Shown here: piece by piece, positions 21,001-28,462 of the stretch
Layout of the letters: the number at the start of each line of letters is the position of its first letter
How positions within the stretch are numbered: position 1 is the stretch's first letter
Origin: Bdellovibrionia bacterium
GTDB lineage: Bacteria; Bdellovibrionota; UBA1018
DNA: 28,462 nucleotides
Assembly (NCBI GenBank): GCA_045805065.1
Contig: JBJMMA010000051.1
Location: 1 to 28,462, forward strand
Reading direction: 5' to 3'
Position numbers: made by a program

Positions 21001-24000
21001 CGCTGTTTTTGACGACGTAAGCATGGGATACATAAGGGTAACATAGAATATCAGCATCAAAAGCATGAGCGAATTCCGAGTAGGGATCCTTGCCTGTTTC
21101 AAGCTTTTCGTAAAAACCTTTGAGTTGATGATTACTGCGACTTAGAAACTCTTTAAAAACGCGCGCCCCTTCTCCGCGGGTAACGTCGATGACTTTTGCC
21201 GTTGGTTTGACTTCAAACTCAACGACCCGGTCCACTGTTCCAGCAGATCTGATGGCAAGTGCCAAATTGTCGCGCCTGACTGAGTAAAGTCCTGAGCCTG
21301 CCGATCCAGCTTCTGACGGGAAAACTCCGCTGAATAGATTCGATCTGAAAAACTCTTCTGTTCTTGTCCCGTGATAGAGTTTTCCATCGGGAAATTCTTG
21401 CGAAGTGGGAGAATAAAGTTTTTCAGGATCGGTTTGATAATGCTTCATGTTCTCCGCGACAGTGGCAGGATCGCGATAGGTCGCAAAGAGGTATTGATTG
21501 ATGGGCGCGGCATCTTCGTATCGGTTAAGCACATTGTTCATGTCAAAGTGCTTGTACAGAAGGTAAGTGGCCGTGGGATTGATGTAGGAACGAAAACTTT
21601 TCGCTACAGTATCGTTAAAGTATTTCTTGAATTGTGGGTTGGCAAAATAAGGAGCTAGCTCATCCTTAGCCTGCGCGATGATCTTCTTCGCAGCCGTTTC
21701 GGACTCATGATCGAATGTGAAAGCATTTTTTGGATCAGGTCGATTCTGGCCGTAGCTGTTGTAATAATCGATTGAGAGAGTTCTTAAATATCTCAGCGCC
21801 AGCAGAATTTGATGATTTGCTTTTTGTTTTGCGTAATGGGTCGTTTCGAATACTTCTTTCGGAGTTACATGCAACGTGGGGCGACCATGAAAGATTTCGT
21901 CCATTCCGTCACCGAATGTCCTGTTTTGAATGATACCCTTTGATCCAATCCGAATTTTTTCAACGGGCAGGTAACCTTGATCGATCTCGCTCTTGCCCAT
22001 CGCGCTGGATGGATTAAATCGCTCGCTTTTGATGTAGTCAATCTTGGTTAGACCATAGATGTCTTTGTTGAGTGCAAGCTCTCGGTCACTCACGATGTCC
22101 ACATCCGAGTCCATGCTCAGAAATTCTTTCGGCTGAATGATCGCTCGGGAACGAAGCTCTTCGATCTTTTTCTTGGCCTGCTCGGGCGTATCGACGCCGA
22201 TGAACTGACGTTTTACCCAGTAGATGAAGTCGCGCGATGTGCCACCAAAGAATTCGGCCTGAGGATTTTCTTTCCAAGCGTCTTTGAAGAGAGACACCTT
22301 TTGACTCAGCTCGCCTGTCAAGGCGGAGAACTCCTCCTTCGACATGAGCTTGTCGGGAGATTGAGCAAAGGCGGATAGGGTAGTGAAAAGCCAAAGAAGA
22401 AGGGCTGATGCTCTAACTGTTCGTGCAATTTTCAGCATCGGACTTCCTCCGGCGGAAATGGCTTATGAGCTAGAATAACGACTCTTCGATATGGCGCTTA
22501 ATGCACTTGAGTTCCATTCTTGGATGAGCTGTGCCTTCCTTCACTTTGGACACCACGGCTGATTTGATTTCATCAAGCTCAGCGGTCGCGGCAGGATTGC
22601 CTTTGGCGCGAGTCATCGACTCGTCAAACGTTCTTGCAAGAAGACCGCTGGAGAGTTTCTTGGCTTGCTCAAAGTGAGGAGTGCCTTTCAATGCATCGAG
22701 CTCTTTTGCGATGGAGGCAGAGAGAGTTTCCATAAAGAGGCCATCTTTGCCTTTGTAGCCAAACTTATCGTAGTCGACCTTCTTGATCAAGGCGTCGAGG
22801 TCTTCCTTGGTCAGATAACGGTCCTTCATGACCTTATTGAAGACAGGCTCGAACTCTTTGGACTCGATGCCTTTATGGATCACTTCATCAGCCATGCTAT
22901 CCACGACTTTATCGATGATCTCGCTCGCGATCGCTTTCTCTTGAGCAGAGCTTCCTTCTCTCACGCCTGGGAACAGGCCGTTATTGATGAGCATGTTCTT
23001 CAATTTTTCAATTTTGCCTAAATCATCGGCTGCTTCTTTGCCTGCACCGCGAGCGCTACCGTCATTGCCACCGCCCGTGGCGTAGCTTCCGTGGTAGAAG
23101 ACTGCGCGATGGCCTGCGGAGAGCTCAACCATTCGCTTAAGAACACTCGAAAGGTTTTGCACATCGGCCACTTCTTGCGCCTTAGGACGGACATATCCTA
23201 AGTAACCTGGGCCTGGGATCAGGCTCACAAAGTCCGCGCCGTTCTGGCGATTGAGCATCGCATTGGTCATCCAGTGTCCGTAGACCTCGTGGACCGCGAC
23301 TTCATGCAGAAGCTCGGGCGTATACTTCATCTTCTCAACGGACTTGAGGTCATGAACGGAAGGAGTGCGGTTGATGCCATCCGCTGATGCATGCTTTTTG
23401 AATTCCCAGGTGCGTTTCTCGCCACCGCCGGGAAGTTTCTTGCCTTCAAGGATGACTTCCTCGCCATCGACGAACCATTGAGGATGCTCGCCATCCGGGA
23501 TCTTCATCTCAATCTTTTGGATGCGATGGCCCTTGATGCGTTGAATATCCGCCATCATGGTTTTAAGCGGGCGGAACATCATGGCATTGAAGCCCTCATC
23601 CACCTCGCGCATTCCAAGCTTCACCGTACTCAGGCGATTAACAACGGACTCCGTGGCGTTTTCTGGGATGATGATTTCAAGATTTGGATTGTTAGCAGCT
23701 TTTCTGATCTCATCGATGGCTTTCTTGATCTTGATGCCGCCAACTCCCAGCGATACTTCGCGAGGCTGTGGGCCCATGACATAGATGTGACCCAAGCGCG
23801 CAATCTTTGGAGCATCAAGACCTTGTCTTTCAAGGTTCTGGACGATTTCAGAGCGAGTGAGTTTTTCGCGAATCTTCTTCACCAAAGATTCAGTTTCTGG
23901 ATTGTCATCCAGCCCTGAGAACATCTCTTGAAGACTGTTGCCGGTGATGCCCACGACAAAGCCGCGAGCATCCTCGTATTTTCCGTTAATCTTGAGTTTC

Positions 24001-27000: not shown

Positions 27001-28462
27001 GTGACTTCGTGTGGATGCTGGATTTTGGGTAGCGCGACCCCGAAGCTGTTTTGGGGGAGTGTCGCTCTCAACTCATCTGTGATCTTTTTGATCGCGTCGA
27101 CGAGCTTTTGATTCTCGGCATCCTCAGTCGCGCTGACCGGATTCATCGCTCTGGCTGGCGTGATCCACAGCGGATTGAGACCGAGTCCCAACGAACTAAT
27201 GATAAGTGCGAGTACTACACCTTGCTTCACCTGTTTTGCGACACGGACGCTCATGCAATAACTATCGGAATTTTATATAAGATTCTTTAGATCAACTAAA
27301 AAACGGTTAGGATTCTGCTGACTTAAATAATTAGGGTTCCCTCAATCGTTTAAACAGGCGATGCTGATAAGGGTCCACTAGGAAAGGATAGGGTGAGTGC
27401 GCGTGCCAATGTGCCGTCTTCTATTTGGAATTGCTCTGGTTTTGGCAGGCGGAATGGTCCAATCCGCTTTGGCCGCGGATCCGTGCGTTAAGGACTCGCT
27501 TCGTGCTCGGTTCAGTTCTTTCTTTTCCAAGCCTGCCGCTGAGTCGCATGCCCAACCCGCTGTTCAGAAGGAAGCTCTCAAGCCTATGATGACCCATGCT
27601 GCTGTTGCTTCTGCGGAAAAGCTGACGATCGATAGTGAAGTCAAAGCCGCAGGAATGATGCCGCGAGGATCCGCGGTGATGACGAGCGCTGGGTTGCTTG
27701 AAGCGCAGGGCATTCGCAATATCATCCATGCTGCAAGCGGAAGCATGACGAAGTCAGGACCAAAGTTTGGGCCTAACCTCGATGGCGTCGTCAACTCGGT
27801 TCACAATTCGCTTGAGCTGGCTCGTCGCAATGGACATCAACGCGTTGCTGTCCCTTTCATTGGTGGCAAGATTTTTATCGATAGCATTGGAATCCCGGCT
27901 CAAGAACTCGCTAATCAGATTGTCGATGCGGCCTTGAAGTCTCGTGGAAACCTTGAGCTACGCTTTGTCACTTTTGGAGCTGAGGATACGACGCTTTTTC
28001 AAAATGCGCTGAAGCGCCATGCAAGCGAAGTGTCGCCTCAGCTTGCTCAGGTTACTCCTGGATCGATTACTGATTTTAATGTCCATGGCGCGAGCGCAAT
28101 CATCAATGCTGCCAATATGGAAATTCAGTTTGGCGGTGGCTTGTCAGGTGCAATTGGGCGAGCAACAGGTCGCGCGGATCAGATCAACGGAGAAGCGCAA
28201 AAAGCGATTCGCGAGTTTTATCAAACTCATCAGTAAATCCCGGCGTTTGTGCCTGTTTGAGCTTTAAAAGCAAAAGGCCCGCGCAGGACAACCCGCGCGG
28301 GCCTTTTTAATTAACTAAACCAGACACGGCTCCGGCTCACCACTCGTCACCGTCGCCGCCTCCGCGACGACCACGGTCACGATCTTTGCCGCGGTTATGG
28401 TCTCTGCCGCGTCCGCGATCACCGCGTCCGCCGCCTTCGCCGCCACCACCGAAACCGCCACC

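What a model noticed while it worked through the whole genome (the two positions that open the first line are those of the whole stretch)
22470..27254. Secreted self-contained AAA+ protease: ClpB-type triple AAA fused to an FtsH M41 zinc peptidase
g00705 (1594 aa) has a signal peptide, three intact AAA modules of ClpB/ClpA type and a C-terminal FtsH-family (M41) zinc peptidase with HExGH, and no membrane anchor. It defines a Bdellovibrionota family of exported unfoldase-protease fusions that need ATP, hence would act in a cell interior.
Evidence so far: Three Walker A motifs; ClpB/ClpV models down to E 1e-40 in homologues; HExGH and DD motifs invariant in 20 rows; model pLDDT 85, Foldseek top hits FtsH, AFG3L2, YME1, E 8e-5; 23 homologues incl. 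Bacteriovorax, all with HExGH, 21 with a hydrophobic N-terminus by eye.
(Added by a program. Inside this text positions count along the whole contig: contig position 1 is position 1 of the stretch shown here. "Call 12" and the like, gene names such as g00115 and contig names such as C1 are that model's own, and its searches are not shown. The text may have been shortened before it was handed on; [...] marks where a part breaks off. The agent that wrote the report below was given it as the finding of a first reader that could run no searches.)

Follow-up and report, generated by a model that had tools for sequence, protein, structure and literature searches.

The report
Exported ATP-driven protease with cysteine tag
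An uncultured Bdellovibrio-type bacterium encodes an exported, single-chain protein shredder (Clp-type motors joined to an FtsH-type zinc protease) that needs ATP and ends in a lone-cysteine tag shared with dozens of other exported enzymes of cell-interior type, which suggests a sorting route by which these bacteria put enzymes into the cells they feed on.

Summary
The 1594-aa gene is real: signal peptide, unknown N-domain, Clp D1, D2 and a second D2, then an M41-fold zinc protease, and no membrane anchor. The zinc motif is HExxGH (28 of 28 aligned rows), not HExGH. Only AAA3 is fully canonical: AAA2 has Walker B Asp changed to Glu and no sensor-2 Arg, and AAA1 has no pore aromatic. The family is larger than stated. 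A sister subfamily has canonical HEAGH and Pfam M41. Matches occur in 49 of 401 phylum genomes and 0 of 251 Myxococcota. New here: the protein's only cysteine sits 10 residues from the C-terminus before an amphipathic helix. 66 of 68 relatives have such a Cys in otherwise Cys-poor chains. About 48 signal-peptide proteins of this genome (30 unrelated clusters) carry it at either end, including kinases, a RelA domain, an ATP-grasp ligase and a J-domain. Best reading: a Sec-exported, tag-sorted effector that degrades protein with ATP inside prey or in leaked prey contents. Activity, export and target are untested. The scan noted cytosolic Clp-M41 fusions before in other genomes, but not this exported family or its tag.

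The parts
22470..27254 (-). Gene for the 1594-aa exported Clp(D1-D2-D2')-M41 protease
   Evidence: against a same-genus genome dN 0.13 vs dS about 2.4 in the protease domain and dN 0.12 with dS saturated in AAA3
27147..27254 (-). Predicted Sec signal peptide, residues 1-36 (cleavage after A-R-A; no twin arginine)
   Evidence: heuristic only. No Shine-Dalgarno sequence seen at this start, and Met37 is a possible alternative start
26415..27146 (-). N-terminal domain of unknown family, about residues 37-280, partly conserved in the HExxGH subfamily
   Evidence: consensus; no Pfam or NCBIfam hit; no usable Atlas hit
25620..26414 (-). AAA1, Clp D1 type: Walker A and B, sensor 1 and RR finger kept; no aromatic pore loop, no RxLPD motif; missing or degenerate in many relatives
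24600..25577 (-). AAA2, Clp D2 type: Walker B reads EE (Asp->Glu; Asn in 38 of 52 of the sister subfamily), sensor-2 Arg absent, pore loop GTVG; no middle domain before it
   Evidence: the Arg finger and sensor 2 were aligned by eye
23505..24467 (-). AAA3, a second D2-type module with all motifs (K983, D1050/E1051, N1106, R1153, R1216); pore loop G-I-x-G (F/Y in 13 and I/V in 13 of 28 rows); probable motor
22767..23324 (-). M41-fold zinc peptidase domain, residues 1311-1496
23274..23291 (-). HExxGH zinc motif (H1322, E1323, H1327): one residue longer than FtsH HEAGH
23022..23024 (-). D1411, probable third zinc ligand, aligned with the Asp of the genome's two FtsH proteins
   Evidence: invariant in 77 of 77 rows
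22530..22766 (-). C-terminal helical extension, residues 1497-1575
   Evidence: model secondary structure
22473..22505 (-). Terminal tag: C1584, the protein's only Cys, followed by an amphipathic helix
20162..22438 (-). Downstream 758-aa gene (31-bp gap, same strand): signal peptide, C-terminal Cys tag, nucleotidyltransferase-like and ADP-ribosyltransferase-like motifs (lead only)
   Evidence: no Pfam hit; Atlas leads to PolyA_pol/Gad2 and PARP, all under 0.9
27397..28236 (+). Divergent 279-aa gene: signal peptide, Cys-helix tag just after it, macrodomain
   Evidence: (PF01661 E 8.9e-10)

Best explanation
It is an exported, single-chain ATP-dependent protease used as a feeding effector. SHOWN by sequence or model: signal peptide; three Clp-type AAA modules (D1, D2, D2'), of which AAA3 is canonical; an M41-fold zinc site (H1322, E1323, H1327, D1411) under purifying selection; a lone terminal Cys plus amphipathic helix shared with many unrelated exported proteins. 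INFERRED: Sec moves it unfolded into the producer's periplasm, where lack of ATP keeps it idle. The Cys-helix tag sorts it, with the other tagged enzymes, to a delivery route (the Cys may be disulfide-linked to a carrier or lipidated). In the prey's interior it assembles into a ring on prey ATP. AAA3 threads proteins into the M41 sites as the AAA ring does in FtsH, and AAA1 and AAA2 serve as optional assembly or substrate-capture tiers. The product is peptides for the predator, or removal of prey proteins.
For: Conserved core AAA3 + M41 + signal peptide + tag in 1-, 2- and 3-AAA forms. AAA3 motifs 27-28 of 28. FtsH profile and structure matches. Strong purifying selection. Cys content of family bodies is 0.05%, against 39 Cys in about 6,800 residues of the genome's Clp, Lon and FtsH proteins, yet 66 of 68 have a Cys in the last 32 residues. 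The genome keeps its own ClpB, ClpA-like, ClpX, 4 Lon and 2 FtsH, so this protein is extra. Of 45 tagged proteins scanned, 13 had a Pfam hit at E<=1e-3: 4 Ser/Thr kinases, CP-ATP-grasp, RelA_SpoT, DnaJ, mTERF, 2 NIF phosphatases, PLD, a/b hydrolase and C1B peptidase; none hit an envelope family. 11 of 40 random untagged signal-peptide calls did. Two kinases, the RelA domain and the J-domain printed keep their catalytic motifs by eye. Tagged neighbours in other genomes include ABC1 kinases and a PRPP synthetase. [quoted passage not shown]
Against: No activity, localisation or expression data. The signal-peptide caller is a heuristic with visible false positives (8 of 40 control calls were cytosolic housekeeping families). 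Met37 is a possible alternative start. The tag statistic weakens once paralogues are merged: 26 of 104 vs 7.5 expected becomes 12 of 78 clusters vs 5.75, P 0.015. The C-terminal rule was drawn from the examples it counts. The tag register differs between lineages (this protein fails the strict C-x3-hydrophobic pattern), and 3 of 11 further relatives show no Cys in the last 24 residues. The pore loop of AAA3 is not aromatic here (Ile), nor in 15 of 28 rows. The window's protease domain alone has no Pfam hit, and pairwise BLAST to the HEAGH subfamily gives E 0.5. The organism's lifestyle and prey are not established by any search. No delivery machine was identified.
Confidence: 0.5

Rival explanations
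1. Exported and active, but tethered: the Cys is lipidated or disulfide-anchored on the predator surface or on vesicles, and the protease works on prey contents and ATP that leak into the bdelloplast or feeding junction, without crossing the prey inner membrane.
For: A C-terminal invariant Cys is a predicted lipidation site in MYXO-CTERM surface sorting (PMC11980579, abstract and passages). [quoted passage not shown] The B. exovorus junction is proposed to open access to the prey cytoplasm (PMC12428579 passage). The genome has 4 secretin matches.
Against: The tag has no TM helix or Arg-rich tail (4-24 residues follow the Cys in most relatives) and also occurs just after signal peptides. Cargo such as an mTERF-like protein, RelA, a J-domain and PRPP synthetase makes most sense with intact cytosolic partners or substrates (inference).
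Confidence: 0.25
2. The target is a eukaryotic host (a protist or its organelles) rather than a bacterial prey; the protein is a host-directed effector.
For: Cargo families (mTERF, NIF/dullard phosphatases, ABC1 kinases, Ser/Thr kinases) are typical of eukaryotes and organelles (the family distributions are recalled). The lifestyle of this lineage is not shown here.
Against: The family also occurs in Bacteriovoracaceae, a family of bacterial predators (recalled). Earlier scan notes report prey-gripping fibre genes in this genome (unchecked).
Confidence: 0.1
3. It works in the producer's own envelope as a quality-control protease or chaperone, with little or no ATP turnover.
For: AAA1 and AAA2 are partly degenerate or lost; pore-loop aromatics are weak.
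Against: AAA3 Walker A and B, sensor 1, Arg finger and sensor 2 are near-invariant in both subfamilies. Distribution is patchy, 49 of 401, with no conserved synteny but frequent tagged neighbours (19 of 97 signal-peptide neighbours vs 4 of 78 others).
Confidence: 0.08
4. It stays in the producer's cytoplasm (start at Met37, or an uncleaved N-out anchor like FtsH/Yme1) as an accessory AAA+ protease.
For: No Shine-Dalgarno sequence at Met1, and a Met follows the cleavage site. Cytosolic Clp-D2/M41 fusions exist (P0126, P0127).
Against: Signal peptide called in 69 of 84 relatives; charge bias is N-in in 56 of 72; strong Cys depletion, whereas the cytosolic fusions carry 11-17 Cys and have no signal peptide or tag.
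Confidence: 0.07

Closest known systems
FtsH / Yme1 / AFG3L2 (MEROPS M41, Pfam PF01434)
   Same: AAA module directly followed by an M41-fold zinc peptidase with His-Glu-His plus a downstream Asp
   Different: No TM anchor; cleavable signal peptide; the motor is Clp D2 type, not the FtsH-type AAA; HExxGH instead of HEAGH in this subfamily; two extra AAA modules; terminal Cys tag
ClpA/ClpC/ClpB class I Hsp100 (TIGR02639, TIGR03346)
   Same: D1-D2 tandem with recognisable Walker, sensor-1 and Arg-finger motifs
   Different: Scores far below cut-offs (92 vs 993 bits for ClpA); no Clp-N domain, no middle domain, no GYVG; a third D2-type module and a fused protease in place of ClpP; exported
ClpV/TssH of type VI secretion (TIGR03345)
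   Same: Best NCBIfam hit, E 5.5e-34
   Different: 117.6 vs 884.95 cut-off; no VipB/TssC match found in this 94%-complete genome; fused protease and signal peptide
Cytosolic Clp-D2/FtsH-M41 fusions (P0126, P0127; earlier scan notes e1-4696099, e1-2835070)
   Same: Single-chain, anchor-less Clp-type AAA plus M41
   Different: P0126/P0127 keep an FtsH-type AAA next to M41, have no signal peptide or tag, and are Cys-rich
Dipeptidyl peptidase III (M49) HEXXGH motif
   Same: Hexapeptide zinc motif, with pentapeptide forms in the same family (PMC5805324 passages)
   Different: Different fold: this domain matches M41; M49 was not among the 50 listed structural matches; convergent motif
MYXO-CTERM sorting tag (TIGR03901)
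   Same: N-terminal signal peptide plus invariant Cys near the C-terminus, on dozens of unrelated proteins per genome (PMC11980579)
   Different: No TM helix or Arg-rich tail; amphipathic helix instead; also found at the mature N-terminus; no NCBIfam tag model hit any of 45 tagged proteins

Membership tests
M41 / FtsH | M41 protease fold | tested here: met
   2di4_B Z 13.1, rmsd 2.5, 151 aligned; profile E 1.3e-27
M41 / FtsH | HExxH (HEAGH) pentapeptide zinc motif | tested here: not met
   HEVYGH; no HExxH in the protein. Met in the sister subfamily, 53 of 53, and in one relative of this clade, L001
M41 / FtsH | Third zinc ligand Asp | tested here: met
   D1411 invariant in 77 rows and aligned with the genome's FtsH
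M41 / FtsH | Pfam PF01434 above cut-off | tested here: not met
   No hit for this protein; P0073 of the sister subfamily scores 65.3 vs 29.9
FtsH proper | N-terminal TM anchor(s) and FtsH-type AAA module | tested here: not met
   No TM after residue 60; AAA3 groups away from FtsH AAA
M41 / FtsH | Zinc- and ATP-dependent processive proteolysis in a hexamer | not testable with these tools
   Needs biochemistry or cryo-EM
Class I Clp/Hsp100 (ClpA/B/C) | D1 followed by D2 AAA module | tested here: met
   AAA1 falls in the Clp D1 group (support 98); AAA2 and AAA3 match D2
ClpB | Coiled-coil middle domain | tested here: not met
   Walker A spacing 288 vs 403 in the genome's ClpB
Class I Clp/Hsp100 (ClpA/B/C) | Aromatic pore loops (GYVG in D2) and sensor-2 Arg in D2 | tested here: not met
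   AAA2 GTVG and no Arg; AAA3 keeps the Arg but has G-I-x-G; AAA1 has no aromatic
Class I Clp/Hsp100 (ClpA/B/C) | Equivalog score above cut-off | tested here: not met
ClpV / T6SS | T6SS sheath genes in the genome | tested here: inconclusive
   No PF05943 match in a 94%-complete genome; other T6SS genes not searched
MYXO-CTERM | Invariant Cys near the C-terminus of signal-peptide proteins | tested here: met
MYXO-CTERM | TM helix and Arg-rich tail after the Cys | tested here: not met
   No TM; 10 residues follow the Cys; no NCBIfam tag hit
MYXO-CTERM | Dedicated myxosortase-type enzyme | not tested
   Not searched
M49 / DPP III | HEXXGH motif | tested here: met
M49 / DPP III | M49 fold | tested here: inconclusive
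   Not among the 50 listed matches of a 676-residue model; the domain matches M41

The most novel reading that the evidence does not exclude
Bdellovibrio-type bacteria have an undescribed Sec-coupled delivery pathway whose signal is a lone terminal Cys plus amphipathic helix. It carries dozens of cytosol-acting effectors per genome into the prey cytoplasm: kinases, phosphatases, alarmone synthetase, PRPP synthetase, ATP-grasp ligase, ADP-ribose writers and erasers, J-domain, and this multi-tier AAA+ protease. This would be an AAA+ protease used as a translocated weapon that runs on the victim's ATP, and predation would include active reprogramming of prey metabolism, not just hydrolysis.
Probability: 0.35. 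Interest if true: 0.93.

Novelty: new variant of a known kind. Interest (0 to 1): 0.78.

Why it matters
Known bacterial AAA+ proteases work in their maker's cytoplasm or inner membrane (recalled). A conserved, exported one implies use in another cell's ATP pool. The shared terminal Cys-helix tag gives a concrete handle on an open question, how Bdellovibrio-type predators get enzymes to the prey cytoplasm; a 2025 paper calls their secretion largely unexplored (PMC12622784 passage). The tag can be tested with one point mutant and a reporter, and it predicts a catalogue of candidate effectors per genome. The D1-D2-D2'-M41 chain with an HExxGH site is also a new architecture for the AAA+ protease field.

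Tried and rejected
Single-sequence model of the protease domain: pLDDT 42.6, not used. Search for forms of 3272-5000 aa found none; the length window was not the one I intended and the result is weak. Homo-oligomer prediction, 4 copies of the protease domain with zinc: no verdict, not evidence either way. No RNA holder listed. No phage match. Promoter and terminator scan at chance level. Atlas search of the N-domain gave no usable hit. A first loose genome-wide tag test was not significant (43 of 707 vs 67 of 1350, p 0.30); the signal appeared only with single-Cys proteins or the helix register. Both trees are quick searches without bootstrap. The M41 tree places FtsH inside an unresolved subfamily-B group and has a long-branch warning, so no origin of the protease domain is claimed. 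Eight literature searches (listings only, open-licence library) showed no description of this family or tag. PMC3239186 passages were irrelevant. PMC3482391 has no mention of Bdellovibrio or Bacteriovorax in the held 300,000 characters. The supplements of PMC12546842 list only ordinary FtsH, ClpB and a ClpA/B-family protein for B. bacteriovorus HD100 under my terms; one file was unreadable and one was cut, so an unannotated homologue is not excluded. bioRxiv supplements were closed and may bear on novelty. Rejected: HExGH motif, ClpB (middle-domain) type, ClpV role, MYXO-CTERM membership.
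Full report
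1. Observation. The ORF at 22470-27254 on the minus strand encodes 1594 aa. It has Walker A motifs at 311, 599 and 977, one hydrophobic stretch (residues 13-31) followed by A-R-A, and no other TM segment. NCBIfam gives ClpV, ClpG, ClpB and ClpA at E 1e-34 to 1e-26, all far below cut-off. Pfam gives AAA and AAA_2 but no M41.

2. Close family. A search with residues 250-1594 returned 34 proteins: the query, 31 relatives at 33-54% identity and 2 ordinary Clp proteins (only 7997 candidates were scored). Of the 32 printed, 30 have HExxGH and 2 end before the protease. In a 28-row alignment H1322, E1323, G1326 and H1327 are invariant and DD is in 27 rows. A search of the 50%-clustered library with the protease part found 44 proteins at E<=0.001.

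3. Sister subfamily and range. A phylum search with AAA3 plus protease matched 39 of 401 genomes. Translating those loci showed long proteins with two or three Walker A motifs and mostly canonical HEAGH. A profile of 39 such fragments found 57 proteins of 932-2660 aa. Of these, 53 form the HEAGH subfamily, all with precomputed PF01434 (several are the same proteins as the loci); the source names given include Oligoflexia, Bacteriovoracaceae and Deltaproteobacteria. The profile matches 49 of 401 phylum genomes, scattered over many families, with 3 candidates scored per genome, 6 of 61 genomes of the family of a Bacteriovoracaceae record, and 0 of 251 of the phylum of a Polyangium record. Forms with one, two or three AAA modules occur, so AAA3 plus protease is the core.

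4. Domains. A 77-row profile of AAA3 plus protease matches ClpC/ClpB D2 (E 1.5e-50, positions 14-331) and FtsH (E 1.3e-27, positions 359-563). The model of residues 919-1594 (pLDDT 92.9) matches CLPB at Z 23.7 and the FtsH protease domain 2di4_B at Z 13.1, rmsd 2.5 A over 151 residues, i.e. residues 1311-1496. Aligned with the genome's two FtsH proteins, HExxGH is a one-residue insertion and D1411 falls on their Asp; D1411 is invariant in 77 rows. The assignment rests on the profile and the model: pairwise BLAST of the window's protease domain to a HEAGH relative gives only E 0.5. DPP III shows that penta- and hexapeptide motifs can both build a working zinc site (PMC5805324, passages). A quick tree puts AAA1 of both subfamilies with Clp D1 (support 98), and AAA2 and AAA3 each in one group (85 and 96) on the D2 side: one origin, D1-D2-D2'-M41. 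Walker A spacing is 288, against 307 and 403 in the genome's ClpA-like and ClpB proteins, so there is no middle domain.

5. Motif integrity (28 rows). AAA3: K983 28, D1050/E1051 27/27, N1106 28, R1153 27, R1216 27; pore position F/Y 13, I/V 13. AAA2: Walker A 28, Walker B Asp replaced by Glu in 27 (by Asn in 38 of 52 of the sister subfamily), catalytic Glu 28, sensor 1 28, Arg finger 28, sensor-2 Arg 1; pore Thr in 17. AAA1: Walker A and B, sensor 1 and RR kept; no aromatic pore loop; no RxLPD. 'Three intact modules' is therefore too strong. Against a same-genus genome, dN is 0.12-0.13 with dS saturated or about 2.4.

6. Export. My heuristic called a signal peptide in 69 of 84 family proteins, 22 of 759 internal pieces and 1 of 16 cytosolic controls; 1 of 84 has a later TM segment. 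Net charge averages +1.5 before and -0.6 after the hydrophobic stretch, and is higher before than after in 56 of 72. Caveats: no Shine-Dalgarno sequence at Met1, and Met37 follows the cleavage site. The heuristic is lenient genome-wide: 8 of 40 random calls were cytosolic families. The genome has its own ClpB, ClpA-like, ClpX, 4 Lon and 2 FtsH, 4 secretin matches and no VipB match.

7. C1584 is the protein's only Cys. Among 68 relatives, 66 have a Cys in the last 32 residues, while 48 of 2753 internal 32-mers contain one. In the 53 proteins it is 51; a strict C-x3-hydrophobic pattern is met by 74 of 84 but not by this protein, whose register is C-I-x3-I-x3-L; of 11 further genomes, 3 show no Cys in the last 24 residues. 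In the window's genome, soluble signal-peptide proteins with a single Cys have it in the last 25 residues in 26 of 104 cases (7.5 expected); without a signal peptide it is 9 of 133 (11.4 expected). Trp, Met and His show no such bias. Merging paralogues reduces this to 12 of 78 clusters vs 5.75, P 0.015. With the helix register added, 17 clusters are tagged against 0-5 in shifted windows, and non-signal proteins give 9 against 5-10; this rule was drawn from the examples. The same rule applied just after the signal peptide, which is an independent test, gives 20 clusters against 3-8 (non-signal 12 against 9-16); a matrix trained on C-termini found 10 N-terminal cases against 0.3. Some N-terminal cases could be lipoprotein cysteines. 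The residues after the Cys are amphipathic (moment 0.46 vs 0.27 +/- 0.15). A first loose test was negative.

8. What carries the tag. I hand-picked 48 tagged proteins (30 clusters, one of 14 paralogues). Of the 45 outside the window, 13 have a Pfam hit at E<=1e-3: four Ser/Thr kinases, two NIF phosphatases, PLD, an a/b hydrolase, a CP-ATP-grasp ligase, mTERF, DnaJ, RelA_SpoT and a C1B peptidase; 32 have none, and none hits an envelope family. NCBIfam has no tag model that hits them. Among 40 random untagged signal-peptide calls, 11 hit envelope or surface families (secretin, OEP, two solute-binding proteins, BamB, LysM, CARDB, HlyD, collagen fibre, Tad, beta-helix) and none hit a protein kinase, RelA, ATP-grasp or J-domain family. 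Around homologues in other genomes there is no synteny, but 19 of 97 signal-peptide neighbours are tagged against 4 of 78 others (p 0.006, kin not independent). Of 28 neighbours scanned, 8 had hits, including two ABC1 kinases and a PRPP synthetase; one was a false signal call and one an untagged transporter. In the window both neighbours carry the tag: a 758-aa protein 31 bp downstream with nucleotidyltransferase- and ART-like leads (all under 0.9) and a divergent macrodomain protein.

9. Mechanism. Most likely (0.5) the protein is exported by Sec, is idle without ATP in the periplasm, is sorted by the Cys-helix tag, and acts inside prey, with AAA3 feeding the M41 sites and AAA1 and AAA2 as optional tiers. 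Ring assembly, threading and delivery are inferred from FtsH and Clp biology (recalled) and from the nature of the co-tagged cargo. The main rival (0.25) is a Cys-tethered enzyme working on leaked prey contents: pools equilibrate in the bdelloplast (PMC10482364, passages), the epibiotic junction opens the prey (PMC12428579, passages), and MYXO-CTERM uses a terminal Cys for surface anchoring (PMC11980579, abstract and passages). A eukaryotic host (0.1), an own-envelope role (0.08) and a cytoplasmic role (0.07) are less likely. Sec delivery of enzymes to the prey cytoplasm is assumed in PMC2797640 (passages), and secretion in these predators is called largely unexplored in PMC12622784 (passages).

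10. Relation to known systems and novelty. It works like an FtsH- or ClpAP-type protease but is not a member of FtsH (no anchor, other motor, other motif) or of ClpA/B/V (below cut-offs, no middle domain, fused protease). Cytosolic Clp-D2/FtsH-M41 fusions exist (P0126, P0127), and the scan noted these and a cytosolic Clp-M41 family before in other genomes (unchecked notes). Look-ups by sequence, by relatives and by tag words returned nothing on this family or tag. Eight paper searches listed no description; most subscription papers are not in that library. PMC12546842 was seen as abstract, outline and a supplement search. Verdict: a real, undescribed exported variant of AAA+ protease, interest 0.78; the tag-defined delivery pathway would be categorically new if shown (probability 0.35).

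Noticed in passing
window 20162-22438 (-): 758-aa signal-peptide protein with C-terminal Cys tag, a nucleotidyltransferase-like N-terminal part and an ART/PARP-like middle part; possible writer opposite the neighbouring exported macrodomain
   Followed up: partly
window 27397-28236 (+): Exported macrodomain protein with the Cys-helix tag right after its signal peptide
   Followed up: partly
L096, L097, L098, L104, L110, L113, L117, L118, L119 (own genome C7, C247, C188, C62, C172, C213, C222, C176, C106): A family of 14 paralogous 670-1200 aa signal-peptide proteins with the C-terminal tag and no confident Pfam hit, partly in tandem arrays
   Followed up: partly
L099, L101, L109 (own genome C121, C12, C143): Four Ser/Thr kinases with clear signal peptides, no TM segment and the tag; catalytic motifs intact in the two printed
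   Followed up: partly
L129 (own genome C195:13032-13859): Small RelA/SpoT synthetase domain behind a signal peptide and an N-terminal tag
   Followed up: partly
L066:2872-15598: Run of tagged signal-peptide genes around a HEAGH homologue, including a PRPP-synthetase-like protein
   Followed up: partly
L057:9832-15348 and L082:1683-6716: Very large tagged proteins ending in an ABC1 atypical kinase domain, next to the protease gene
   Followed up: no
P0125: Cytosolic protein with two Clp-D2 modules fused to a trypsin-like protease, another AAA-protease fusion
   Followed up: no
window 18347-20092 (-): Two tandem cupredoxin/plastocyanin-like genes between the tagged genes and hemW-grpE-dnaK-dnaJ
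   Followed up: no
L059:4728-9394: Homologue split at a run of N (assembly gap), not a real split gene
   Followed up: yes
L001:285-4598: Member of the HExxGH clade that has the pentapeptide HEVGH instead (long branch; loss or ancestral state not resolved)
   Followed up: partly
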